Positions 2,251 through 55,800 of a stretch of 64,000 nucleotides of DNA are shown here, in pieces (the stretch's first letter is position 1; each line of letters begins with the position of its first letter). The position numbers and the translations under genes were made by a program. Below the pieces are notes generated by a model that was not told the DNA's origin, ran no database searches, and saw only the letters and a program-made list of their open reading frames with translations. Source of the stretch: Thraustochytrium aureum (lineage: Eukaryota); contig BLSG01000391.1 in assembly GCA_012862495.1 (NCBI GenBank), positions 293,760 through 357,759 of the forward strand, read 5' to 3'.

Positions 2251-4189
2251 ATGTTTGCCTGCTTCAGCAACAAGAAGCGCGCGCAGCAGCAGACGACCGC
2301 CGCGCGGCTCGAGGCTGCGCGCAAACGCGAGGCCGAGTCGCGACGCAAACTCCGCGAGGCCGGAAAGGACGAGCAAGTCCAGGGCGGGCCTGCCGAGGAG
2401 GCGCCCGAGCAGCAGCAAGCGCTCGGGCAAGTTGCTGTCGAGTCGAAGCGCGAGTCGAAGCGCGGGTCGAAGCAGGTGGCCAAGGCGGCGCGGGCGAGCT
2501 ACGATGACTTTGTCAAGTTGCTCGACGAGTACTGGGCGGAGGCTTTGGCGATGTCGCCGATGGGCGCCACGCAGATGGGCTTCCACGAGTACGACGACCG
2601 GCTGGACCAAGGTCACCGTCGAGCACATGACCGCCTGGAAAGAGAGCTGCGAAGAGTACCTGGACAGGCTGGAGAGCATGTTTCCGGCCTCCGACGCGGG
2701 GCGGTTCGAGGGCTGGGACCTCAACGGCAAGACCACCCTGCTCGTTCTCCAAGACTCGCTGCGCAGCGACATCCGCATGACCGAGCTGGAGAACTACTTG
2801 ATCCAGATGTGCACGCTCTCGGCGCCGCACCTGGACCTCCCGCCGTGCCTGGAAAAGAACAAGTTTGACAGCGAGGCGGACGTGCTCAAGTTCAAGAAGC
2901 GGCTCGAGGACATTCCGCGCTACGTGCGCAACCACTGCAGCATGCTGGAGCTGGGTCTGGAGAAGAACATCACGCAGAGCCGTGTCGTGCTGGAAAACGT
3001 CCCGGGCCAAGTGGACGCCATGTTGGCAGCCGAAACCGACCCGTTCAGCGCCCTCGTGGAGGAGAACTGGGCCAAAGCGAAAGCGTCGGACGCCCTTCGT
3101 AGCGAGGTGGAGGCTGTGATCTCGGACAAGGTGCTCCCCGCGCTCAAGGAGTACGCCGACTTTCTGCGCGAATTCTGCCCCAAGCTGAGCGAGGAGCCTG
3201 CGATGCCCAAGCGCATGGCCAACGGCGAGGAGCTGTACAGCTTCCTGCTCGAGTACCACACCACGACCAAGCTGTCGCCCAAGGAGGTGCACGAGATTGG
3301 GCTTGGCGAGGTGGAGCGCATCACGCGCACGATGCGCGAGATTGCCGAGTCGGAGGGCTTTACCGGCGAGAACGCGGTGGACGAGTACCAGGCCATGATC
3401 GACGAAAAGTGCGTCGCGGCCACTGAGGAGGATCTCTTGGCGCACTACCGCGCAGTGGCGATGGACATCAGCCCGCGGCTGCCAGAGCTGTTTGGGCTCC
3501 TGCCGCGCACACCGTTCGGGATCCGGCCGATCCCCGCGTACGCGGCCGAGCACGCCCCGGGGGCCTACTACCTGCCGCCGCCGGAGGACCTGAGCCAGCC
3601 GGGTTGGTTTTGCCTCAACACGAGCTTCCTGCCGTCGCGAAAGACGTACGTTGCGGAGGCACTGGTGGCGCACGAGGCGATCCCAGGCCACCACATGCAG
3701 ATCGCACTGGCGACGGAGAACGACAAGCTGCACACGTTTCGCAAGTTTACGTACCAGACCGCCTACGTTGAGGGCTGGGGCCTCTACTCGGAGTGCCTCG
3801 GGTTCGAGCTGGGCCTCTACAAGACGAACGAGTCGCACTACGGGCGTCTCCAGGCCGAGATCCTGCGCGCCGCGCGCCTCGTCGTCGACACGGGGATGAA
3901 CTACTTTGGCTGGACCAAGCAAAAGGCCATGGACTACATGCTCGAGCACAAGGCCGGCACCTTTGAGGACTGCGACAGCGAGAGCACGAGGTATCTGGGC
4001 CTGCCGGGCCAGGCTTGCGCGTACAAGATTGGCGAGATCAAGATCCGCGAGCTGCGCGCACGCGCAGAGAAGGACTTGGGCGCCAAGTTTAAGATCCGCG
4101 ACTTTCACGACCTGCTAATTGCCGTCGGGTCGGTGCCGCTCACGGTCTTGGAGGAGATCGTGGTTGACTGGATCGCGGAGCAGCTCTGA
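2251..4189 (+). CDS. DUF885-family putative zinc metallopeptidase, paralogue 2 (frameshift near 2605)
   Basis: Joins ORF 2251 (MFACFSNKK...MGFHEYDDRL) to ORF 1925-4189. Family motifs HEAIPGHH, YVEGWGLYSE, RAARLVVDTG, PGQACAYKIG, FHD..L..GSVPL. Confidence 0.9.
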
Positions 4190-42698: not shown

Positions 42699-43457
42699 TG
42701 GCGGCGTCGGCGCGGTCTTTCTGGATGGGCAGGAAGAGCTTGAACTCGGGCGGGAGCTCGTCCTCCGAGTAAAGGCGGTCGGAAAAGTAGATGCGGCGGA
42801 TGCGGCAGTTGGCGTGGATCTGGACGCGCAGCGTCTCGATGTAGTTGGTCCCGTACGCGCGGCGCGTAAAGTCGGAGAGGTTGAACTGGATCTGGTTCCA
42901 GCCCTCGTCGAGCCGCATCGGCATCGTGCAAATAAACGGCTTGACGCGCGTCGTCGACTGGTAGTTGCTGGCGCGGAAGCGGCGGCGGACGTTCTTGTCG
43001 TCGAGCACTTGCACCTCAAAGGTAAAGTACTTTTTCAGGTTCTTGATGATCATCACCAGGAAGGGGAGCTTGATGCCGAGCGTCTTCTTGGCGTCGGCCG
43101 GGCAGCTGCGTTCGTGAGGCAGTCGCGCGCGCGTTAGCCGCCCGATTCTCTCCTCTCCTCCTCGCCTCCTCGCCTCTCCTGAGCGATGCGACGGGGTGCG
43201 ATCTTGGCGCGCGGCCTCGTCCCTCCTCCACGCCGGCGCACTCCGGCAGCCCGGCGCGCCCGGTCCAGCCCGACTTACGAGATATAGTTGGTCGACACGT
43301 TGGTGCCCATGATCTCCAGCACGCTCGACTGGATGTCCACATCCGTGATCCTCTTGATGTGTCCATTCCTGACCTTCTTGTCCCAGATCGCCAGCGGCTT
43401 GCTGCCAATGCTGTACAAGATGGACAGAAACCCGGACTGAAACGTATTCTTAAACAT
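42565..43457 (-). CDS. CFAP20: CFAP20/BUG22 with polyQ C-terminal extension; intron 43106-43278
   Basis: [22 protein letters not shown]...[42 protein letters not shown]...[15 protein letters not shown]; intron GTAAGT...CAG. Confidence 0.98.

Positions 43458-43519: not shown

Positions 43520-43546
<27 letters not shown>
43520..43546. repeat. (CTG/CAG)n microsatellite upstream of CFAP20
   Basis: Directly visible TGC run. Confidence 0.85.
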
Positions 43547-43551
<5 letters not shown>

Positions 43552-43713
43552 CTGCTTTCGCGACGGTCGCGTCCGGCTGTATCGATCGCTCCCTGACTGG
43601 CTGGCTGGCTGGCTGGCTGGCGGGCCGCGTCTGCTCCTCGGCTGCTTGCGAGTCTGCTTGCAGCTCTGGCGGCGGTCCGCCGGCATCGCCACCTTGCGGC
43701 CTATGAGCGCGCG

Positions 43714-43772
43714 GGCGAAAGCGAGGCGAAAGCGAGGCGAAAGCGAGGCGAAAGCGAGGCGAAAGCGAGGCG
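43714..43772. repeat. 11-bp tandem repeat (GGCGAAAGCGA) x5
   Basis: Five perfect copies plus a partial, upstream of CFAP20. Confidence 0.9.
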
Positions 43773-44792
43773 GACGCGAGGCGGCTGTGAGCGGAAGGCC
43801 CCTCTGGCGCTCGAGCCGCCTGAAACGGCACTATTCTCTCTCGCTAGCGCGAAAACCACGCGGCCGAAGTCCGCCAAAAAACGTTGAAAACGCTCGAAAA
43901 CACCGCGAAAAGCAACCTACGCCCAGAGGAAAGCGCCGACCCCGCGAGCAACCAAGCCATCCATCGTGCGAGGCTGTTGAGAGGCTGCGCGAACGCCTCT
44001 CAGGCTGCGTAACCGACATGTCTGTCCGCTCGCACGGCGCTGGTGGTGAGCAACATCTTCCATCACCTTCATGCCGTGCGTTGTGTCGCGCTCGCGGAGG
44101 TCAGAGCAGCTCGTGGGCGCCAAGGGGCCTGGGCTAGGGCGCTGTTGCGGGCCGGCCAGCGGGACGTGCGTTGCTTTGCCGAGCCACGGCCCTTGCCGCT
44201 GCACGCCTTGCTTGTTTTGCCGCAGATGTCAACGTCGCACGGCGAGTGTCGAGCAGAATAGACCGGTTGGCGCCCGGCATGCGTGAACGGGCCGTTCGTA
44301 ACGGAGGTACCACAGTGACTCCACAAAGAGCTCGGAGCACGTGACAGTGGGGACGGAGTGACGCGCGCGGCANNNNNNNNNNNNNNNNNNNNNNNNNNNN
44401 NNNNNNNNNNNNNNNNNNNNNNNNNNNNNNNNNNNNNNNNNNNNNNNNNNNNNNNNNNNNNNNNNNNNNNNNNNNNNNNNNNNNNNNNNNNNNNNNNNNN
44501 NNNNNNNNNNNNNNNNNNNNNNNNNNNNNNNNNNNNNNNNNNNNNNNNNNNNNNNNNNNNNNNNNNNNNNNNNNNNNNNNNNNNNNNNNNCACCCGCTCT
44601 GCGAGCCGTTCGCTCGCAGGAGCGTCGGGCGCCGCAGGGCAGGTGCGTGGGCATCCACAGGCGGCAGCCGCTGCCAGCCTGCGTCCTCGTGGCTCGAGCG
44701 GCTCGCTGGAGCGGCGCTCTTGATCCGAGCCAGCCAGACCGCATTCAGAATTCAGAATCAGAAGATAGATGCATCGATCAGTTCAGAGTGGA

Positions 44793-47700
44793 GAGCTGGG
44801 GATCATACGGTGGGGTACCGCAGAAGAAAAACCCCCGAAGGGGGATTGGGGGATGGCGGACTGGGAAGAAACCCGCGAGTGAGCACGCAAACATCGGTGG
44901 TCTGCATCACTGGTCGGCAGTAGTGACGTCGTTCTGACAGCGGCTACTCGGGTGGAGTGCTATACTGGTTTTTATCGACTCGCTATTTATAGATAGCAAA
45001 CATAAGCAGTGGTCCGCAAATTAATTTCGAGCCTTCACCTTAGGCTTAGTCGCAGGGCTGGCGCGGATTTGCTCAATTCGTCAAACCTGATTTTCGCCGA
45101 TTGAAGACGGTTTTGCGAAGTTTACGGAACGCATTGGTGCCCATCTGAGGAGACGGTCGACGCCGGAAGATCCTATTTCGCCATTGCCATGTTAAGCGGC
45201 GTGGATTTTTCAAATCTTCAGTCAAGGATAGTCCGTCTCACAAAAGTTGGTCGAAGATTTCGAGTGCCGTGGTTGGACAGCGCGGCGGCGGGCGCAGCTC
45301 CCGAGGCTCCAAGGTCAACAGCAAGCAGTCCATGAAGCGAACCTGTGCGCGCGTCGTGCAAGTACCCACATAGAGGTGCGCCATGGGTCGGGCAACAGAG
45401 ACGATGGCAAGCGACGCCAGGATCAAAGATGCCAAGGACTTGACACCAGCGCAGCGAGAGCACCTGCTCCAAGTCGCAGCCCAGCTCAACAGGCGCCAAG
45501 CACAAGGGGTCAAGCAGCTGCTCTTCCCGAGTATTGATCCGAACTCGGCCCAGTGCGACTTGGACAGTGGGAAGTGGACTGTCTTTCCGGTCCACGTCTG
45601 GGCTCCCTCGTTGTACGACCCCAGCCTCTCTAGCGGCATACCCTGCATTCGCTGCGATTGTCCAGTGCCCTGGCAAAATGGTGAATTCCGCTACAAGAAG
45701 GTGTTTGGGGTCAATGGCCAGTCGATCCTCCTCCACGTGCTTTACAGGTGCCCAGAGCAAAGGTGCACGAGGTGCTTTATGAACTCAAACGAGAAAGTTC
45801 TCGCGAGAATGGGTGAGCACGCGAGGTCTCACTTTCGCTTCTTTCAGAGCAAGAAGGCGACGCTGGAGCATTCTCTTTGCGAACACCTTTACAGCATGGT
45901 CCAAAAGATGAGCGCAAAATCAGTTGCAGCTCACTTTGCATCAATTTACGCCATGGAGCACCGGGTGCGACGGCACCAGCACATGAGCAAAACTCTGGAG
46001 AACAGCGGGCCGCGAGGCCAACCCACGCGAAAGCGACAGGAAACGATTCAAGCCGCGTTTGCAAGACAACCGCATGGACCGCAGCGAGCCCCGAACTTGA
46101 TTTCCAAGTCAGCATCAGATGCCAAATTTACTGAGGCGAGAACTGTCGCCAACGTGGGCGTCGACTTGGTCCAGGGCGTCGGGCCTGGTAAAGTTTCTAC
46201 TCTCGTGGAAGCCGGTTACGAAACCGCACTCGATATCGCGCTTGTTGACGTGTCAACCTTCAATGGACCAACACCAGAGGCAGCGAATCATTTGCGCAAC
46301 TTTCTAGGGAGCAAATCGAAGGAAAAGGGGACCAAGCTCGTCACAACACTACGTGCTCTCGCGATCAAACGCATTGCTGCTGCCGAGAAAGCCTGCCTCA
46401 ATGCTCTGAGTGGCCAAAAACTCAAGTATCACGAAAATTTGAAGCAGATCCGCACGTCGCTGGCTGAAGAAGCCGAGATCGACGCGGAGAACAGACGCAG
46501 ACAAGCCGAATTTGACGAGACTGGAGCGGATCGAGCAAAAGCCATGGTAGCGACAACAGACTCGCCACATGTGCCACGTCGTGCGACGGAATATCTGGGC
46601 AGCTTTGAGGTCAACGGCGGCGCTGTCTTCACGCGGAGCTTGGTTATGTCAGTCGTGTTTGACAAGTTCCGGCTCCGCGGCCCACAGCTGCTTCAGCAAA
46701 TGATGAGTATACCGTCCCGCGTCCTGCGCCTTGACTCGTCATGGAAAGTCGGCAACTTCATTCGCGTCCAGAACTTGCAGACAAAGGAGCATTTCCAGGC
46801 GTACGGCTCGCTCTTGGTGATTCTGAACGAATACGGCCAAGTGATTGCCTTCAAGCTTTGCCAGGGGCGAGAGGAGCTTAAGGCTCACAAGCCACTGTTG
46901 GAGCTGATTTGCTCTACTCAAAAGGCCCTTCACAAGCAACTTATCAAGGAAGGCAAACTACCTGCGTGTGACAACCCCGGGGTGGCGACGATTTTTGTCG
47001 ACAACTGCTGCATGCACCGGCCTTTCCTCCAGGGCGTGTTTGGCGCGCACGTACGCGTCCTGCTTGACGTCTTTCATTTCATGCAGCGGTTCGAACCATT
47101 TGTAACGGCGCAGAAGGGCACAACTATCCAGAAAGAGTTTTATGCAGGGCTGAGCCGCGCCATCTTCCAAGTCGAGGCCGCCTCTGACGCCGCAAGCGAA
47201 ACGGAGAGCGACGCGAGCGAGCCGCTCCGTACACGCTTGCGGGGCTCAACAGCAAGGCGCAGGGTCCCGCCGCCAGGCGAACTCCTCAAGTCGGTCTCGA
47301 ATTACCTAGGGAAGGTCATCAATGGCCATGGCCTCCGCGAAGGCAACTCTAAGGTGAAACGTTGGGCAAACCTGGCGAGCTACGTTGACGGCAGTTTACC
47401 GGAGGAGCCCCCCCAAACGCCCAAAATGTCTGTGCTCAAGCAGGAGGTCACGGTAAAGCGTGGGAATGTGCATACGACAAAGACCTTTAGGCAGTTGTGG
47501 GACACGCAAGCTGAGCACATCTCCAGAGGTTGCCTGAGCGATCCTGAGAACGTCGACCTTTACAATATTCTCGCTGATGGCGTGAGCGTTTCAAGTGCAC
47601 GCGGGACGTCGAGCGTTGAAGCAGTGAACCTTGTCGCAAAAGGCGCATCGATTGGTGGTCGTGTGACAAGCGTTCAGCTCGTTTTCTTTCGCCTAACCGA

Positions 47701-50699
47701 GATTTTCACTGCTTTCAACCGGGCCAGGGAGGCGAAATATACGGCAATCGAAGGTGTCGAGTCACAGTACAGGGACCTTGCCGACGAGCTCAGGGCCAAC
47801 TCGATCGCGAGTGCTTTTCACACAGAGAGGGCGGATCTTCCGTACCCCAATGCGCGCGCCCCTTCGGTACGCATAACGATGTCCCTTTTCGGTTTGTCGG
47901 ATAACTGGCTCGACTCACATTCTGTAGCTGGTGGAGTGGGTGAAGACGTTGGGTTCCTGGACGACGACGATGATGTCAGCAGGGAAAACTTCGACGCTCA
48001 ATCAGGCGATGCGGATTTTCCAGTTGACGATGGTCCCGATCCCCAAACGCTCGGTGTAAAACCCAGCGTCTACTCTTTCGAGGCTAGTCTCTTTCTTGGC
48101 CTTTTGATGGCAGGGCGACAGGATGTTTTACAAGCAGCGTTTGGAGACCGTTGCAACGGCCTCGCTGACCCGCAGCGGAACTGGGAGCCACTGCGGACCA
48201 ACTTGGACCAGAGTCGGGCCTTTCTCTTTGCATCCAGAGCGATTGTGCTCGTGTGGGTCAGAAACCAAGTCATGCGGTGGGATATGAACGACCCGCTCGT
48301 CCAGCTAATTCGACTCGAGTTGGTGACACGAGCGTGTGATGGTATGCTCGCAGTTTCGGAACTGAAAGGCGCTGACATTGGCGTCGAGATCGAGAGGCAA
48401 GACGCAAGGTCGCTCAGTGCCCTCTTTGAGGCATACGTCGCCGAGCTCAACGACATTTCGCGGCTCTTTGACTCGTCGTCGATGTCCATGAGGTGCCTAT
48501 CACTTTACCCGTACCTTTTGTTGCTCTATTTGCGGCACACCTCCGGAGTCTTGGTCCACGTCTTTGTGCACAACCGAGTATCTGGACGGTCGTCACAAGA
48601 ATTTCGTCTCGATGCGAGGCTGCTTGACAGAGCGAAGCACAGGCAGGCAAAGCCGGCCGTGGCAACGTCGTTCTGCTCTGTCTTTCTGGCTTCGACTGTC
48701 AATGATTACTCTGTATACACCGGGAATCTGCTCGGAAAGGAGGTGCTCGTGAATCCTGAAGCGCGCGGCCAGCGTCTCAGCTCGCGCTCGCCAAACTGCC
48801 AAAGGGCCAAAGGGCCACCGCTCAGCAGGGCGAAAAAGCAACACCTGAAGCAAGCCGACCTGCTGCCCGCCGACCATCCAGAAATGTTCAGCTTCAACTG
48901 GAGTGACCTACGCTACACGCTTGAACGCCAAACCATCGAGAAGCTGGTTGGCAGTTACTCGACCTGGCATTCAAAGACTGTGGAGAAGATGCGGACGACC
49001 CCTACAATCCTGAAAAAACTGTCGGCGCTGTTCAACGCAGAGGTTACAAGCTACAGGAAACGACTTGAGGTCGATGGCCCACCTGAGGTGTTCGTGCGCT
49101 CGGAGGAGGTTGTGACGGAAGTGCAGGTGATGAAGTTCAAAACGCCGACCATGATTAGGGATTACCTGTTCAAATGGACGAAGTCTCCAGAGGAGAGAAA
49201 GCTTGCTCGGCAAGCTGCGGCTCAGATTCGAAAGGCCTCACCTCAGAGTACTTGCGACAATGTCGCGATTGGCAACGGCCCCATCCATCTTGACGAAGGG
49301 TTGGACAAGAGTTACCCTGGCTGGGCGGGAACCCTCCCAGGGCATGTGAGTTCGGTCCCTGGCCAGCTTGGCGCCCGGACGGTATCGCCTGTGTCAGCAC
49401 ATTCCAAACTACGCTTTTACGCGCCCTTCATCGTGGACGGCGTTCTAAGCATGGGCACCGCTGACAAGCACAGGCGTTGTGAAGCGCCTTCAAGTCAGAA
49501 GCCAAGCAAGCGCCCCTGCCTTGAGCGCACGCCCGACTGCGTTTTAGTTTCGAACAGTGTTCGCGAAGCAGTGGCTGCTGCTCTTGCTTGCCGTCACCGT
49601 CTTCAGCCGAGGTCTGACAGGCTAGGACCATGGCGCGACGATTTCGCTGCTCCATGGGCCCTTTCGGATGATGAGAAAGATTTCCTCGTCTCTGTCCGTG
49701 CGGTTTGGCACGCCGATCGCGTCATGCGGATGCGTCAGAAAAGTGCCTTTCTGCAGTCGGATGCGCTGCATCACCTTACCCCCCTATTTCTGCGAGACAC
49801 GAGTGGAAATGATGGTTGGCTCTCTGGCGACTGCATCGAGCTGTTTGGAGCAGCAGTGAACAACCAAGGGACATTGCTTCGCGGGCTCGTTCCGCCAAGT
49901 CAAGACTGGTTCTTCATCGGCCCGATGAGCGTGCAGTACCTCGTAGGATTCAGCAAGGTGACTCAAGATCTGCGAGCGCTGAGCGAGCGCAGGAATGTCA
50001 ATGTTTTGTTCATTGCGCTGCATCTCGAGGCGGAAAATCACTGGGCTATGGTGGCAGTCTACCTCCAATCACGCGTGATGAAGTATTACGACTCTCTCGA
50101 CAAGTGCCAATCACCTGGTACCTTTGAATGGGCCTATGGAGTTCTTGAGAGACTTGTGCAGAGTCGACTGCTCCCTACAGAAAACGGACTCGGCTCGCTG
50201 GACGAGTGGAAAAGTGCGTCCGGCAAAGGATCCTGCCCGAGGCAAGTGCTCGATGATTGTGGGGCTTTCATGTGCTGGAATGTATGGGCGCTTGCCAGGG
50301 CAGGGCCACTCGTCGGTTCTGGCCATGTCCTGAAATGGAACAGCTCGTGGAGCGGCAAGTTCAAGTCGAAAGGAGTTCGCAAGTCGGGGAGGCAGCTGCT
50401 CCGTGGCCGTGTCCTTCTCGAGATACTTCGTTCAAACGCGATTGAAGGGATGCTTACTGTGACAACACATGCTGGGGCGGATATCACCTGACATGTGGAG
50501 TGCCCAACACCGAAACGGCGCAACGGATAGTTTTAGTATCTCCGGATTAGTCCGGATTTAACCATTTAAGAGGAGGCGAGTCTTGTGCTCTTTGATTTGG
50601 TGATAATCCGAAAGGAGACGACCCGTCGTGTTTCTCCGTCCATATCAAATACGTGATGGTTTTTTTCCTACTTGCTTCACACCGTACGATTCTTAGGCC
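44793..50699 (+). mobile_element. Complete autonomous DNA transposon, DDE/DxxH class, Dada-like, encoding a Ulp1 domain
   Basis: AGAGTGGA at 44785-44792 and 50700-50707 (9 bp CAGAGTGGA if the preceding C is included). Left end GAGCTGGGGATCATACGGTG vs reverse-complemented right end GGCCTAAGAATCGTACGGTG is 14/20 ungapped with core ATC[A/G]TACGGTG. Single long transposase ORF; visibly lower GC than host genes. Confidence 0.85.
45383..50491 (+). CDS. 1702-aa transposase: Cys/His-rich N-term, HhH, DDE core with DxxH, C-terminal Ulp1/SENP (C48) protease
   Basis: CIRCDC...YRCPEQRC; VQGVGPGKVSTLVEAGYETALDIA (HhH); VLRLDSSWK, LNEYGQV, IFVDNCC, LLDVFHFMQR, RGTSSVEAVN; protease WLSGDCI, HWAMV, YYDSL, PRQVLDDCGAF. 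Confidence 0.88.
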   Translation: MGRATETMASDARIKDAKDLTPAQREHLLQVAAQLNRRQAQGVKQLLFPSIDPNSAQCDLDSGKWTVFPVHVWAPSLYDPSLSSGIPCIRCDCPVPWQNGEFRYKKVFGVNGQSILLHVLYRCPEQRCTRCFMNSNEKVLARMGEHARSHFRFFQSKKATLEHSLCEHLYSMVQKMSAKSVAAHFASIYAMEHRVRRHQHMSKTLENSGPRGQPTRKRQETIQAAFARQPHGPQRAPNLISKSASDAKFTEARTVANVGVDLVQGVGPGKVSTLVEAGYETALDIALVDVSTFNGPTPEAANHLRNFLGSKSKEKGTKLVTTLRALAIKRIAAAEKACLNALSGQKLKYHENLKQIRTSLAEEAEIDAENRRRQAEFDETGADRAKAMVATTDSPHVPRRATEYLGSFEVNGGAVFTRSLVMSVVFDKFRLRGPQLLQQMMSIPSRVLRLDSSWKVGNFIRVQNLQTKEHFQAYGSLLVILNEYGQVIAFKLCQGREELKAHKPLLELICSTQKALHKQLIKEGKLPACDNPGVATIFVDNCCMHRPFLQGVFGAHVRVLLDVFHFMQRFEPFVTAQKGTTIQKEFYAGLSRAIFQVEAASDAASETESDASEPLRTRLRGSTARRRVPPPGELLKSVSNYLGKVINGHGLREGNSKVKRWANLASYVDGSLPEEPPQTPKMSVLKQEVTVKRGNVHTTKTFRQLWDTQAEHISRGCLSDPENVDLYNILADGVSVSSARGTSSVEAVNLVAKGASIGGRVTSVQLVFFRLTEIFTAFNRAREAKYTAIEGVESQYRDLADELRANSIASAFHTERADLPYPNARAPSVRITMSLFGLSDNWLDSHSVAGGVGEDVGFLDDDDDVSRENFDAQSGDADFPVDDGPDPQTLGVKPSVYSFEASLFLGLLMAGRQDVLQAAFGDRCNGLADPQRNWEPLRTNLDQSRAFLFASRAIVLVWVRNQVMRWDMNDPLVQLIRLELVTRACDGMLAVSELKGADIGVEIERQDARSLSALFEAYVAELNDISRLFDSSSMSMRCLSLYPYLLLLYLRHTSGVLVHVFVHNRVSGRSSQEFRLDARLLDRAKHRQAKPAVATSFCSVFLASTVNDYSVYTGNLLGKEVLVNPEARGQRLSSRSPNCQRAKGPPLSRAKKQHLKQADLLPADHPEMFSFNWSDLRYTLERQTIEKLVGSYSTWHSKTVEKMRTTPTILKKLSALFNAEVTSYRKRLEVDGPPEVFVRSEEVVTEVQVMKFKTPTMIRDYLFKWTKSPEERKLARQAAAQIRKASPQSTCDNVAIGNGPIHLDEGLDKSYPGWAGTLPGHVSSVPGQLGARTVSPVSAHSKLRFYAPFIVDGVLSMGTADKHRRCEAPSSQKPSKRPCLERTPDCVLVSNSVREAVAAALACRHRLQPRSDRLGPWRDDFAAPWALSDDEKDFLVSVRAVWHADRVMRMRQKSAFLQSDALHHLTPLFLRDTSGNDGWLSGDCIELFGAAVNNQGTLLRGLVPPSQDWFFIGPMSVQYLVGFSKVTQDLRALSERRNVNVLFIALHLEAENHWAMVAVYLQSRVMKYYDSLDKCQSPGTFEWAYGVLERLVQSRLLPTENGLGSLDEWKSASGKGSCPRQVLDDCGAFMCWNVWALARAGPLVGSGHVLKWNSSWSGKFKSKGVRKSGRQLLRGRVLLEILRSNAIEGMLTVTTHAGADIT

Positions 50700-51084
50700 A
50701 GAGTGGATCAGAGAGCAGAACGGTTAGGGATCTGTCCGGCCCTTCTATGTTCTCTCCCCGCCGCACTTAATCGCTGCCTTCGCACGGCTGCCAGGCTCTC
50801 GGCATAATCTAAAGTGCGCGGGCGCGCGCGTGGGCCTTAACTCGGCGGCCCCAGCAAGCACTGAAGAGTGCGCGAAGTGCGAGGCAGGCTTAAGGGCCGC
50901 GTGGTTTGTAGTGCGTCGCTTGAAGACGGACAGGTGGAGAGCATCTCGGTCGAGAGTGATCGATGGATGATCCATCGTCACTCATCGGCTCGAGCGACAG
51001 TCGCGAAACCAAACACAACGTGCAGAGTCGAAGCAGCAGGCCATCGAGTTTGAGCCGCGACGATCGTTGTTTGCGGGAGCAAGG

Positions 51085-52110
51085 ATGGGCGCCACGGGGA
51101 CCAAGCCGACCAAAAAGTTCAACGTAGCCGTGCTCGGCGCCGCCGGCGGTATCGGACAGCCGCTGTCGCTGCTGCTGGCCACCTCGGAGTATGTCAAGGT
51201 GCTCCATACGTATGATGTCATGCCCGTGGTGAACGGCGTGGGCGTGGACTTGAGCCACATCGAGACCGAGTGCCAGGTCAAGGGCTTCGCCGGGGATATG
51301 AAGGACAAGGAGGTCTCGAAAGCCAAGCTCGCCGAGGCGCTCAAGGGCATCGACATCGTCGTGATCCCCGCCGGAGTGCCGCGCAAGCCCGGCATGACCC
51401 GCGACGACCTGTTCAACGTCAACGCCGGCATCGTGGCCAACCTCGTCGAGGGCGTCGCTGACAACTGCCCCAACGCGATGATCTGCATCATCTCCAACCC
51501 GGTCAACAGCACCGTTCCGATCGCCGCCGAGGTGCTCAAGAAGAAGGGGTGCTACAACCGCAAGCACCTCTTTGGCGTCTCCACGCTCGACGTCGTGCGC
51601 GCCAACAAGTTCGTCTCCGAAAAGTGCGGCATTCCCCCGTCCGAGGTGAACGCGTTCGTCATCGCGGGCCACTCGGGCTCGACGATCATTCCGCTCCTCT
51701 CGCAGCTCCCAGAGGCGGCCAAGGCCAAGCTCTCCGAGGATGACATCAAGGCTCTCACGGAGCGGATTCAGAACGCCGGGACGGAGGTTGTCGACGCCAA
51801 GGCTGGCGGCGGCTCCGCCACGCTCTCTATGGCCTACGCAGGCGCGCGTTTTGTCAAGTCGCTCATGCGCGGCATGAGCGGCGAGCAGGACGTCGTCGAG
51901 TGCTCGTACGTCCCGTCGACCATCACCCCGCTCGCCTTCTTTGCTTCGCGCGTGCGCCTGGGCCCCAGCGGCGCCGAGGAGGTTCTCCCGCTCCCGGCGG
52001 ACATGAGCGATTTCGAGAAGTCCAAGCTTGAGAACGAGGCCAAGCCGGACCTCCAAAAGTCCATCGATGCCGGCGTCGCTTTCGTCGCCTCTGCCATGGC
52101 TTCGCTTTAG
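51085..52110 (+). CDS. MDH: NAD-dependent malate dehydrogenase (MDH2-type clade)
   Basis: [83 protein letters not shown]. Confidence 0.97.
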
Positions 52111-52833
52111 GCCGTCGCGTTCGCGCCAGACCGGGTTGAGCGAACACCATCCACTATGAAACACCCAAATCAATTTGCCTCGCTCCCTCCGTCCAACTTG
52201 CCCAGCATCCTGCCCGCCGCCATGACCTTGAGCTCGTCCGACGGCGGGCCCCTGTGGGGCTCATGGCACGGGCTTCGATTGCAGCGGTGTTGCTCAGTTT
52301 TTGAGGTTGACATTGTTGCGTGGCAGCATTCAGCAAGCACCACTGCCTGTAGATCATTGCCTGTAGACCACTGCCGCGCCGGTCCTCCGACTTGCCCGGC
52401 TCGCCGTCAGGCCCACGCAGGCATCGACCAGCGGTCCCACCCCGAGCTTCCGCCAGGGCGTCCTCCGAGGGCCGTGGCGCGCGTGAGAAATACCCAAGTA
52501 CGTGCACGAAACGTGGTGATCAACGGACACATTTTCTGTCGAGCAGGCGCAAATCGATCGAATCGCTCGCCGCGCTGCACGTGCGAGCGCTGCTGCGGGG
52601 CCGCGCGCCAGGGCGCAGCGCAGCGACGCAAAGCCTCCAAGGCGGAGAATTGTTGCTTGTGTTCTGGTTGCGGCGCTTGGTTTCGCGCGGCACGGACGCG
52701 TCGACCCGCCCGCCCCTGTGGTCTCCAACTCTCAGCGCGGTGGCCAGGGTGCGGGCAACGCAGCTGGCGGACGCCACAGGACCGTGGGCAGCTCACGAGG
52801 CCGCGCGCAGGCGCCAGCGCCGCGCCGCGCACG

Positions 52834-55800
52834 ATGCATCACAAGGTCGTGAACGACTATACGGCGTCGACAAAGACAGGGAATGACAATATTAGGGTGT
52901 TTGTGCGGGCCAGGCCTCCCTCGGACGGGTCTGCGCCAACCAAGGAGATGTGGCCCACCCCTGGGGACGACCAGGGCAGGATAGCCATTCGCGACACTGC
53001 CGTGAAGAACGGAGGCGAGCACGCGTTCCGATTCGACGGGGTGTTCTGGACTCAAGTGCCCCAGGACGCGCTGTTCTCCGAGGTCGCTCGCCCGCTCGTC
53101 GAGCACACGTTGCAGGGGTTTAACGGGTGCTGCTTTGCGTACGGGCAGACTGGATCCGGCAAGACGCACTCGATGTTTGGGGCGCGCGGGCAGCAGCGCG
53201 GCATCATTCCGCGCTGCGTCGATCTCGCCTTTGAGCACACCGAGCGCGACAAGCGCGCCAACCGCGACCTGCAGGTCAAGATCACAGTGTCAATGCTGGA
53301 GATGTATTGCGACGAAATGCGCGACCTCGGGAGCGCGTACGCAGCAAATATTGCCGCGAACGCCCAGGGCGGTCGTCCTCGCCTCAACACCTCCGACTGG
53401 TACCAAGAGCGGCTGAGGCAACGCAAGTCGTTTGGGGCCTCGCCCGGGGGCGACGCCACGAGCGACGTCGCGCTTGTGGCGATGGGCGCCCCCGAGGCCG
53501 ACCTGGAGATCCGCGAGGACCTCGGCGGCAACGTGTACGTGAAAAACCTCTCTGAAATCCCGGTCACCAAGCCGTCGCAAGTCTTCGACATCGTGGAGCA
53601 GGGCTTCGCCCTCCGCGCCACGCACGAAACCAAGCTCAACAAGGAGTCATCGCGTTCGCACACCATATTCACGCTGACAGTGGCGCAGACGGACACGAGC
53701 ACCGGGATCACAGTCAAGGGCCACCTCAACCTCGTCGACCTCGCTGGGAGCGAGCGGCTCGGCAAGAGCGAGGCGCAAGGACAGCGACTCAAAGAGACGC
53801 TATTCATCAACTCGTCCCTCTCCGCGCTCGGCAAGGTCGCCGCCGCGCTCGACCCCTCCACGCCAGCCGGCTACATCCCGTACCGCGACTCCAAGCTGAC
53901 CCGCCTTTTGCAGAGCTCGCTCGGCGGCAACGCGCACACCACTGTGCTCGCCACGCTGCACCCGATCAAGACCAACTATGAGGAGTGCCTGAGCACGCTG
54001 CAGTTCGCCAACCGGTGCCGCTGCGTCGTCAACCAGCCGCGCGTCAACTACACGGACGACCAGGGCCGCAACTTGATGGAGGAGACCATCCGCCGACTCC
54101 AAGCCGAGGTGAAGCGCGTCCGTCTACTGCTGGCGGTCATCGTCTCCAAAAAGAACAAGCAAATCGAGGAGATTCTAGCCACGCTGGGCCACAACAACGC
54201 GCGCATTCTCGGCGACGGCCGTGTCCAGCTGCCCGACGGCCAGGTCTTGGGCTCGCGCATCGACATCGACTCGATCGAGCGCCAAGTGACCACGTCGCAG
54301 CAGGCCGCCGAAGCGGAAGCCGCTGCGCAGCGAGGCCTCTACGGATGGGGCCTGGGTTCGGTGGCTCTCCAGGGGGGCTTGGGCGTGGCCAGAGCCACTT
54401 TTTGAGCCCTGGGTCGCCAGGAGGACCGCAGGGCCGGCTTGCTGCTGGCTCCCCCCGAGGTGGCGCTGCTGGGCTCGCGATGGCCTCGCTTGGCGGCAGC
54501 ATGCCGGGCTCGCCATTGGCGCCAGGCGGCTCGGCGCTCTCGTTCCTCCACTTGGAGACCGCGCCGGACGACCTCATCCACCACATCGGCTCTGCGGGGC
54601 CGGCGAGCCCTGGGGGCACAAATGGNNNNNNNNNNNNNNNNNNNNNNNNNNNNNNNNNNNNNNNNNNNNNNNNNNNNNNNNNNNNNNNNNNNNNNNNNNN
54701 NNNNNNNNNNNNNNNNNNNNNNNNNNNNNNNNNNNNNNNNNNNNNNNNNNNNNNNNNNNNNNNNNNNNNNNNNNNNNNNNNNNNNNCACAAATGGAGCGC
54801 CCTGGGATGCGCTCGTATGGGAAACTGGCGCGATCGGGCCTGGCATGGGGTCCCGCGCCGGGAACGAGTCCAGCGGGGAGCTGAGCCCCGACGGACACGC
54901 CCTCGCGTTGGCCAATGCCGCAACGAGCCGCGCACCTTGCGACTCGCTCGGCCAGATCCGGGAGGAAAACCGGCAGCTGCGCGCCTCGGTGCACGCCCTC
55001 AAAGGCGAGAACGGCAGGCTGCGCAGCGCTGTCGAGAAACACAAGCGCGAGTCCAAAAAGCAAGAAAACGAGCACCGGCGTCAGCACCCTCAAGGCGCGC
55101 GAAGAGGTCAAGCAGCAGCGCGAACTCGTGGCCAAGCTCAAAGGCGAGGTGCGCGACGCCTCAGTGTTGGCCAAGACAAACGTCGAGGTTGTGCGCCACG
55201 AATACGAGCAAAAGCTTGCCGCACTCGTGGATCACTCGCGACAAGTCGAGGCCAAAACACAAGAGCGGGTGGGGCGGGTCCCGGACGCGCTCCGCGTGGA
55301 CTCGGCCAAGATTCACGCTGCCAACAAACACGCCGAGCGCATCGAGGCGGCACTGACGCGCAAGCACGAGGAGCATGTGCGCCAGCTTGTCGAGGCGCGC
55401 GAGGCGCAGGTCGCGGCCGTGCGCGAGCAGGCCGAGTATTGGATCGCCAAGAAGGACGCCGACTGCAAGCGCCTCGTTGAGGACTTTAACCTCTACCACA
55501 AGCGGCGCGCCTCGGAGGTAAACGAGTACCGGCGCGAGCTCAGGCTGCTGTACGAGCACTGCAACACGATGGCGCGCGTGATCAACAAGGTGCAGCTCGG
55601 CGAGTACCGCATCCGTGCCTCGTCCTCGCGCGCGAACCTGCTCAAGCAAGTCTGCGTGCGCACAGGCGACATGCCGGAAGATGGCTTGCTCGCCGATGCG
55701 AGCCGCCTCCGGCTGTTGCGAGAGCAGATCCGCCTCGTCGCCGGGCTCGAGGCTCAAGCGGCGAGCCGGCCACAGACAGCGGGTGGGTCGGGCGCTGGCC

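What the first reader, a model, noticed from the sequence alone, without database searches (positions are those of the whole stretch)
44785..50707. Intact ~5.9-kb Dada-like DNA transposon with exact TSD, inserted outside any recognisable small-RNA gene
Seen: AGAGTGGA (or CAGAGTGGA) flanks both ends; the termini are imperfect inverted repeats (14/20, core ATC[A/G]TACGGTG at positions 10-20); one uninterrupted 1702-aa ORF has the motif series LRLDSSWK / NEYGQV / VDNCC / LDVFHFMQR / RGTSSVE. Knowledge (from memory): this series resembles Dada-superfamily transposases of the DxxH group, described as targeting tRNA, U1 and U6 genes with 6-7 bp TSDs and sub-terminal inverted motifs. Inference: the reconstructed empty site (...GATCAGTTC-AGAGTGGA-TCAGAGAGCAGAACGG...) shows no tRNA or snRNA signature and the TSD is 8-9 bp, so this may be an undescribed lineage with a different targeting rule.
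Basis: partly seen in the sequence, partly recalled or inferred. Interest (0 to 1): 0.9.

Follow-up and report, generated by a model that had tools for sequence, protein, structure and literature searches.

The report
Dada transposon with circle-type joined ends
An intact 5.9-kb jumping gene of the Dada type sits between ordinary genes of a eukaryotic genome with an 8-base footprint, and end-to-end joined copies in its own family and in two distant relatives suggest that it likely moves through a circle, as bacterial IS256 elements do, rather than by plain cut-and-paste.

Summary
The element spans 44793-50699 (5,907 bp), has an 8-bp target duplication and 14/20 inverted ends (about 7e-4 by chance), and one intronless 1,702-aa ORF. 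Contigs of an independent run break exactly at both ends and include an element-free allele.

The protein is Dada-type. Its CCCC finger spacing equals that of Dada-U6_DR, its D451/D540/E746 triad and DxxH motif are conserved across 116 aligned sequences, and 21 of 46 scanned relatives carry DUF6729. No small-RNA gene was found at this site or at relatives' sites.

New lead: the right end is joined to the left end across 7 bp in this family (one contig). Two distant relatives assemble as unit-length circles with 5- and 6-bp spacers, while linear copies have 8-bp duplications. The closest solved fold is ISCth4 (IS256 family; Z 13.9), which makes 6-8-bp junctions and 8-bp duplications. [quoted passage not shown] It would reinterpret the published 6-7-bp Dada duplication. 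New variant of a known superfamily.

The parts
44785..44792 (+). Left copy of the 8-bp target site duplication (AGAGTGGA)
44793..50699 (+). Transposon, 5,907 bp, termini 5'-G...C-3'
   Evidence: contig breaks at 44793 and 50699 and an element-free allele in run X2
44793..44812 (+). Left imperfect terminal inverted repeat (14/20; 10/11 core at 44802-44812)
44823..44831 (+). Subterminal GAAGAAAAA motif at position 31 of the element; the same motif lies at position 29 in the left ends of distant relatives
   Evidence: homology inferred
45383..50491 (+). Single intronless ORF, 1,702 aa: Dada-type transposase fused to an Ulp1-like protease
   Evidence: contigs of run X1 (likely RNA) cover much of it
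45644..45775 (+). N-terminal CCCC zinc finger C88/C93/C128/C131 (spacing 5/35/3, as C389/C394/C429/C432 of Dada-U6_DR); homologous to the DUF6729 region of relatives
   Evidence: versus PMC3706591; P0014 match to aa 69-195
46169..46255 (+). Helix-hairpin-helix-like insert (aa 263-291); weak
   Evidence: Pfam HHH_5 E 0.022, below its cut-off; a similar G-x-G-x-x-K motif in 30 of 160 fetched proteins
46733..47620 (+). RNase H-like DDE core with helical insertion: D451, D540, DxxH (D562/H565), E746
49991..50308 (+). Ulp1/SENP-type (C48) cysteine protease domain with H1553, D1570, Q1621, C1626 present
   Evidence: Pfam PF02902 E 1.2e-4 on the whole protein and 5.5e-6 on the domain; SENP5 E 0.001
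50680..50699 (-). Right imperfect terminal inverted repeat
50700..50707 (+). Right copy of the 8-bp target site duplication

Best explanation
This is an intact Dada-type DDE DNA transposon (44793-50699) with an 8-bp target duplication, lying outside any recognisable small-RNA gene, whose transposase carries an Ulp1-like protease domain, and it likely moves by an IS256-like route through joined ends. Inferred steps: the transposase binds the weak inverted and subterminal motifs; one end is nicked and attacks the flank a few bases outside the other end; this gives a right-end/left-end junction with a 5-7-bp spacer, as a circle or a head-to-tail dimer; the junction is then integrated into a new site with an 8-bp stagger. 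The protease would cut SUMO or another ubiquitin-like modifier, probably to ease chromatin access or silencing (inferred from family only). Shown here: the ends, the TSD, the intact ORF, conserved catalytic residues, presence/absence polymorphism, an internally deleted derivative and the junction sequences. Not shown: catalysis, free circles, or the origin of the spacers.
For: Ends and TSD. Dada-type protein: finger spacing identical to Dada-U6_DR. In alignment A2 (query plus 115 relatives), D451 is D in 105 of 105 non-gap rows, D540, D562 and H565 in 116 of 116, and E746 in 85 of 89 non-gap rows. DUF6729 is found in 21 of 46 relatives scanned, and Atlas DUF6729 clusters score 0.91. The same motif order was read by eye in Dada-5S-A_CaAu in the supplement of PMC8869645. 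Fold: AlphaFold model pLDDT 85; the best PDB match is ISCth4 of the IS256 family by Foldseek (E 9e-4, the only hit at or below 1e-3) and by VIA (Z 13.9, rmsd 4.7, 259 aligned, against P element 9.4 and Hermes 8.9). Junctions: run X2 has a joint 50699->44791 with 5 letters between, that is right end + 7 bp + left end (table 5c). Two of 34 related loci are circular contigs (L012, L013), each one element long (5,097 and 5,021 bp, against 5,066 bp for the linear relative L006), with 6- and 5-bp spacers between the ends. Linear relatives with both flanks have an 8-bp TSD in 2 of 3 cases (L006 8/8, L008 7/8). ISCth4 makes 6-8-bp junction spacers, IS256 makes 5-, 6-, 7- and 19-bp spacers, and both give 8-bp TSDs (PMC7780238, passages). 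Kojima and Jurka saw apparent 8-bp repeats around Dada-U1 but chose 6 bp partly because tandem copies were 6 bp apart, which is the pattern this route predicts.
Against: The junction in this family rests on one contig of one run. Its kind (same-strand or strand-changing) was not printed, and its depth (4.6) is like that of host single-copy contigs, which fits a chromosomal dimer better than a free circle. L012 and L013 are only about 25% identical in protein to this element. Their right ends were placed with a ruler from L006 (1-2 nt uncertain), the L012 spacer also occurs 14 nt earlier inside the proposed right end, and L012's transposase gene is frameshifted. Circular contigs can be collapsed tandem arrays. 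The spacers could not be traced to donor flanks. L018 shows no TSD (4/8). No eukaryotic MULE transposase appeared among the listed fold matches, so ISCth4 may be closest by default, and a shared fold does not show a pathway. Circles of cut-and-paste elements can be repair by-products. The X2 empty allele lacks the element plus 15 bp between two GATCAG repeats, which could be an excision scar and so fit cut-and-paste. Of 13 listed differences in the ORF, 10 are non-synonymous (partial list), so purifying selection is not shown.
Confidence: 0.57

Rival explanations
1. It is the same Dada-type element with an 8-bp TSD, but it moves by ordinary cut-and-paste like MULE, hAT or P. The joined ends are by-products: excised copies sealed by end joining, or insertions next to another copy.
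For: P element and Hermes are the next-best folds. The X2 empty allele can be read as excision plus microhomology repair. Spacer lengths differ (5, 6, 7). Circles of maize Mu and K. lactis alpha3 are reported without the pathway being settled in the passages read (PMC3942029).
Against: All three junctions appear to keep both ends whole with short spacers in the IS256 range. The two circles are one element long. ISCth4 stands 4.5 Z units above P element.
Confidence: 0.3
2. It is a target-specific Dada whose target is an unrecognised multicopy RNA gene or repeat, such as a spliced-leader RNA or a divergent snRNA.
For: Target specificity defines the described families. Both this site and L006 have TTC just before the left TSD. 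Rfam misses undescribed RNAs.
Against: Three differing right flanks in X2 (agreement 0.61). No repeated 14-mer in either flank within the window, no stable fold and no Pol III A box. The site is length-polymorphic between strains. 0 tRNA genes in 34 of 34 related loci, 0 Rfam hits in 20 of the 34, and no tRNA in the empty sites of L006 and L008.
Confidence: 0.07
3. It is a Zisupton/KDZ or MULE element rather than a Dada, since an 8-bp TSD, inverted ends and an Ulp1 domain fit those groups.
For: Zisupton has TIRs and 8-bp TSDs (PMC12730594 passages). Ulp1 in Zisupton and some MULEs is recalled, not from a call. Mutator/MULE clusters appear in the Atlas at 0.77-0.79.
Against: No KDZ, SWIM or MULE Pfam hit in this protein or in 46 of 46 relatives scanned. 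DUF6729 clusters rank first. The finger spacing and motif series are Dada's.
Confidence: 0.05

Closest known systems
Dada superfamily (Kojima & Jurka 2013, PMC3706591; Kojima 2022, PMC8869645), especially the non-animal families listed without a target (Dada-1_ES, Dada-1/2_LB, Dada-1_CV, Dada-1_MB)
   Same: DDE triad with DxxH; N-terminal CCCC finger with identical spacing; same motif order; length within the 4.7-11-kb range; short inverted motif near the ends.
   Different: 8-bp TSD (published 6-7); weak terminal inverted repeats (published none); no small-RNA target; no C-terminal CCHC finger but an Ulp1 protease; no DEDDy exonuclease; intronless (published only for Perkinsus); end-to-end junctions, which neither paper discusses as circles.
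IS256 family / ISCth4 and prokaryotic Mutator-like elements (PMC7780238, PMC3942029)
   Same: Closest solved fold; DxxH in a helical insertion; 8-bp TSD; terminal C; joined ends with 5-8-bp spacers.
   Different: Eukaryotic host; about 9% identity; 1,702 aa against about 400 aa; zinc finger, HhH-like insert and protease; D2-E distance of 206 aa; pathway not demonstrated here.
Zisupton/KDZ (PMC12730594 passages; Ulp1, SWIM and SAP content recalled)
   Same: 8-bp TSD, inverted ends, large transposase, Ulp1 domain (recalled).
   Different: No KDZ or SWIM Pfam hit; Dada-type motifs and DUF6729 relatives.
KolobokP (PMC9587614 passages)
   Same: A eukaryotic C/DxxH transposon for which a copy-out/paste-in-like circle was suggested from excision footprints.
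   Different: TTAA 4-bp TSD, long direct repeats, homing endonuclease; there the circle is implied, whereas here junction sequences are seen.

Membership tests
Dada superfamily | DDE triad with DxxH after the second D | tested here: met
   D451/D540/E746 and D562/H565 conserved in A2; RNase H fold with helical insertion
Dada superfamily | N-terminal CCCC zinc finger | tested here: met
   C88/C93/C128/C131, spacing 5/35/3 as in Dada-U6_DR
Dada superfamily | C-terminal CCHC zinc finger (stated for all Dada transposases) | tested here: not met
   No CxxC after C131; an Ulp1 domain lies at the C-terminus
Dada superfamily | 6-7-bp TSD | tested here: not met
   8 bp here and in L006 and L008; the authors did not exclude 8 bp for Dada-U1
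Dada superfamily | Insertion at a fixed site in tRNA, snRNA or 5S genes | tested here: not met
   differing flanks in X2; relatives
Dada superfamily | No TIRs, but short subterminal inverted motif also present in the target | tested here: inconclusive
   A 10/11 inverted core at positions 10-20 is present, but the match extends weakly to the tips (14/20) and the motif is absent from the flanks (at most 5/11)
Dada superfamily | Phylogenetic nesting among named Dada transposases | not testable with these tools
   All but one of the looked-up hits are unnamed or 'hypothetical'; Dataset S1 of PMC3706591 is unreadable; the tree has no named references
IS256-like copy-out/paste-in pathway (works like) | Intact ends joined by a short spacer, with an 8-bp TSD on insertion | tested here: met
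   Spacers of 7 bp (X2), 6 bp and 5 bp (L012, L013); one contig each
IS256-like copy-out/paste-in pathway (works like) | Spacer derived from one donor flank; donor left intact; free circle | not testable with these tools
   Donor flanks are not available and only contigs were seen
Zisupton/KDZ | KDZ catalytic domain with CxC/SWIM fingers (recalled) | tested here: not met
   No such Pfam hit in the protein or in 46 of 46 relatives scanned
Zisupton/KDZ | 8-bp TSD and TIRs | tested here: met
   definition
Ulp1/SENP protease (C48) | His-Asp-Gln-Cys catalytic set in a C48 fold | tested here: met
   H1553, D1570, Q1621, C1626 align to SENP5/SENP2; Pfam above cut-off; activity untested

The most novel reading that the evidence does not exclude
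Dada and its wide, unnamed microbial-eukaryote relatives form a eukaryotic transposon group that moves by bacterial-style copy-out/paste-in through joined ends. The true TSD is 8 bp, the published 6-7-bp value partly reflects junction spacers, small-RNA targeting is a derived trait of some lineages, and non-targeting lineages such as this one have repeatedly gained an Ulp1 protease.
Probability: 0.35. Interest if true: 0.85.

Novelty: new variant of a known kind. Interest (0 to 1): 0.63.

Why it matters
How Dada moves has never been tested in the papers read, and its TSD length was left open by its describers. An intact, intronless, compact copy with exact ends and a predicted junction substrate makes the question directly testable in vitro. 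If joined-end transposition holds, a major bacterial pathway would extend to a eukaryotic superfamily. The superfamily definition (6-7-bp TSD, no TIRs, small-RNA targets, CCHC finger) would need widening, and this non-targeting enzyme would be the natural comparison for finding what makes other Dadas site-specific, which bears on their proposed use for targeted gene delivery.

Tried and rejected
No whole genome is held, so copies could not be counted genome-wide; no second copy or fragment lies in the window. Three word-based homologue searches found nothing, and 10 of 10 window proteins were absent from the exact look-up, so the host is not identified. Single-protein scans of viral, metagenome (39) and prokaryote genome collections (74), a terminal-motif scan of viral contigs (72), alignment scans of viral and genome contigs (109, 110) and tblastn of plasmids (73, best E 4) gave no relative. 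The single-sequence fold was unusable (pLDDT 34). Sequence searches of the PDB with the core gave nothing significant. No RNA holder is on record in the run list. Rejected readings: a 9-bp TSD, a 7-bp TSD and a 6-bp GATCAG TSD, because X2 copies share C50699 and diverge right after it. A U6-like look of the L006 flank was not supported by Rfam. A naive hairpin search for circle junctions failed because the relatives' inverted ends are only about 3 bp; generic DR+IR scans gave chance pairs. The tree is the quick version, with 82 of 116 rows kept, and has no named references; the protein is sister to P0001 (support 88) and the Ulp1 label needs 4 changes. The second Atlas query did not complete. 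Iyer 2014 is not held.
Full report
Observation. The element is real. AGAGTGGA occurs exactly twice in the 64-kb window, at 44785 and 50700. Between the two copies lie 5,907 bp whose tips match at 14/20 as inverted repeats, with a 10/11 core at positions 10-20. Among 468,234 possible end pairs around the ORF, only 44793/50699 has both an 8-bp outside repeat and at least 14/20 inverted match, against 7e-4 expected. The ORF 45383-50491 is uninterrupted (1,702 aa) and differs from host genes in GC and GC3. No genome is held and no other copy lies in the window.

Independent support for the ends. Two of four requested runs could be read, both as contigs. In X2 (DNA by guess) one contig begins at 44793, one ends at 50699, and three unlike loose ends follow 50699. 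Other copies therefore share these ends and have other flanks, C50699 is part of the element, and the TSD is 8 bp. X2 also holds an element-free allele (joint 44749->50706). That allele lacks a further 15 bp between two GATCAG repeats, so it shows presence/absence but cannot confirm the octamer. X2 further holds an internally deleted derivative (46138->50173). X1 (RNA by guess; it carries a spliced CFA20 intron) has contigs over much of the ORF and none over 43533-45587, a weak hint of transcription. Of 13 listed differences in the ORF, 10 are non-synonymous (the table was cut), so selection on the protein is not shown.

Target. Rfam at gathering score and ARAGORN found nothing in the window, and Rfam to E 10 on each flank gave chance hits only. 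The reconstructed empty site has no tRNA call across the junction at ARAGORN's 80% setting; looser settings scatter sub-threshold calls along the whole stretch, including across the junction. It has no Pol III A box, no recalled snRNA hallmark other than the ubiquitous H-box pattern, no stable fold and no repeated 14-mer. The site is intergenic, 378 bp upstream of malate dehydrogenase.

Protein. Word-based searches were empty, but full HMMER gave 147 hits with E at most 0.001, the best at 7.7e-24 and 34% identity. Of 46 long hits scanned (46 of 147), 21 carry DUF6729, 4 carry a C-terminal Peptidase_C48, and none carries a KDZ, SWIM or MULE domain. A profile search added P0002 to the protease-bearing set; P0001 shows the motifs by eye only. 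In alignment A2 (the query, 114 of the 147 hits and one cluster member) D451 is D in 105 of 105 non-gap rows, D540, D562 and H565 in 116 of 116, and E746 in 85 of 89. The cysteines C88/C93/C128/C131 have the same 5/35/3 spacing as the CCCC finger of Dada-U6_DR (PMC3706591), and the motif order matches Dada-5S-A_CaAu read by eye in the supplement of PMC8869645. That DUF6729 marks Dada proteins is my inference; no held paper uses the term. The C-terminal CCHC finger stated for all Dadas is absent. An Ulp1/SENP domain with H1553, D1570, Q1621 and C1626 is present. The looked-up relatives (20 of 147) are nearly all unnamed metagenome or run-assembly proteins, so nesting among named Dadas could not be tested. 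The quick tree (82 of 116 rows) puts the protein on a long branch beside P0001 and needs 4 changes of the Ulp1 label.

Fold. With A2 the core folds confidently (pLDDT 85, pTM 0.84). Its best solved match is the IS256-family transposase ISCth4, by Foldseek (E 9e-4) and by VIA (Z 13.9, rmsd 4.7, 259 aligned), ahead of P element (9.4) and Hermes (8.9). No eukaryotic MULE structure appeared among the listed rows, so this ranking is among what is solved.

Joined ends. Table 5c lists in X2 a joint from 50699 to 44791 with five letters between, which reads as right end, 7 bp, left end. It is one contig at depth 4.6 and its kind was not printed. An alignment scan of metagenomes gave 34 related loci from 123 pattern matches (22-40% identity), with no tRNA in 34 of 34, no Rfam hit in 20 of the 34 and one chance hit to E 1 in 9 of the 34. 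In one subfamily the left end is fixed: GGT lies 28 nt before ACGAAGAAAAA at 8 of 9 sites (L011 and L016 are one locus), with unrelated flanks. Three loci have both ends with outside flanks: L006 (147-5212, TSD 8/8), L008 (726-5543, 7/8) and L018 (4/8, no TSD). Two of 34 contigs are circular (L012, L013). Each is one element plus a spacer of 6 or 5 bp between right and left ends, far from the assembly seam, and L013 has an intact 1,188-codon frame across the seam. Their right ends were placed with a ruler from L006 and are uncertain by 1-2 nt; L012's gene is frameshifted.

Mechanism. ISCth4 forms junctions with 6-8-bp spacers and IS256 with 5-, 6-, 7- and 19-bp spacers, and both insert with 8-bp TSDs (PMC7780238); prokaryotic Mutator-like elements have 6-10-bp spacers and 8-9-bp repeats (PMC3942029). 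Three junctions of 5, 6 and 7 bp beside 8-bp TSDs, plus the fold, make an IS256-like joined-end route the best reading (0.57). Ordinary cut-and-paste with junctions as by-products remains a strong rival (0.30): the evidence is single contigs, circles may be collapsed tandem arrays, the spacers are not traced to donors, and the X2 empty allele may be an excision scar. Kojima and Jurka saw apparent 8-bp repeats at Dada-U1 and Dada-tIA sites but proposed 6 bp, partly because tandem copies were 6 bp apart, and did not exclude 8 bp. The joined-end route predicts that pattern. I noted the X2 joint before consulting earlier scan notes; note e1-9108784 then prompted the comparison with insertion sequences, and it is not independent evidence. 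Notes e1-9873306, e1-7284027 and e1-7146183 report other Dada-like elements outside RNA genes; I did not check them.

Comparison and novelty. The element works like a Dada-type DDE transposon and shares its catalytic and N-terminal signature. It fails three published features (6-7-bp TSD, small-RNA target, CCHC finger), so I file it as a Dada-related variant and not as a member of any described family. Nine literature searches showed no listing on non-targeting, Ulp1-bearing or circle-forming Dadas, and the two Dada papers contain no use of 'circular' or 'protease'. Repbase and most subscription papers could not be searched and may hold such families. The Ectocarpus Dada is listed as incomplete with TSD unknown (PMC12477816 supplement row). 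A copy-out-like circle has been suggested for KolobokP, and circles are reported for Mu and alpha3, so eukaryotic precedents exist.

Papers seen. PMC3706591: parts 1-3 of 4 (main text into the reference list), passages and the supplement list; its protein alignment file and figures were unreadable and may bear on membership and TSD length. PMC8869645: parts 1-3 of 5, passages, and part 1 of 109 of the supplement. Passages only: PMC12477816 (plus supplement rows), PMC5751038, PMC13565253, PMC4455052, PMC12730594, PMC5718144, PMC9587614, PMC7780238, PMC3942029. Zisupton domain content and Ulp1 in MULEs are recalled; Iyer 2014 was not held.

Verdict. A real, intact, polymorphic Dada-related transposon; new variant of a known kind; interest 0.63. 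The most novel reading, that Dada as a group moves through joined ends and has an 8-bp TSD, has probability about 0.35 and would merit 0.85.

Noticed in passing
L012:4564-5180 plus wrap, L013:2873-3586, L004, L006, L007, L009 (minus strand, downstream of the transposase): A subfamily of relatives carries a second, convergent ORF of about 240-300 codons inside the element. It is more conserved at DNA level (70-90%) than the transposase gene and has no Pfam hit.
   Followed up: partly
window 46138-50173: Run X2 has a joint skipping 4,034 bp, that is an internally deleted, likely non-autonomous derivative of about 1.9 kb.
   Followed up: no
window 44750-50705: The element-free allele in X2 also lacks a 15-bp unit between two GATCAG repeats and differs in the TTCAGA/ATCAGA-like run upstream: an excision scar or a length polymorphism.
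   Followed up: partly
P0069 (NCBI MFK7809473.1): A Dada-type transposase with an Ulp1 domain is annotated as an Ulp1 isopeptidase of a bacterial MAG on a 5.2-kb contig; probably a eukaryotic contig binned in error.
   Followed up: no
L024:4008-6896: A relative with a weak OTU-like protease hit (E 3.5e-4, below cut-off), suggesting a second kind of ubiquitin-like protease in this group.
   Followed up: no
window 43105-43279 and 51085-54405: Host context: a spliced 173-bp GT-AG intron in CFA20; malate dehydrogenase starts 378 bp right of the element, followed by a kinesin; FAP206, PA28, PIGA, Tubby, CLC and an intronless DUF885 gene lie elsewhere. This points to an intron-poor, 63% GC flagellate-bearing protist; a thraustochytrid-like host is my unverified guess.
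   Followed up: partly
window 2504-4189: An intronless DUF885 gene (a family described as bacterial; E 8.5e-137) with host-like GC3, possibly an old horizontal acquisition.
   Followed up: no
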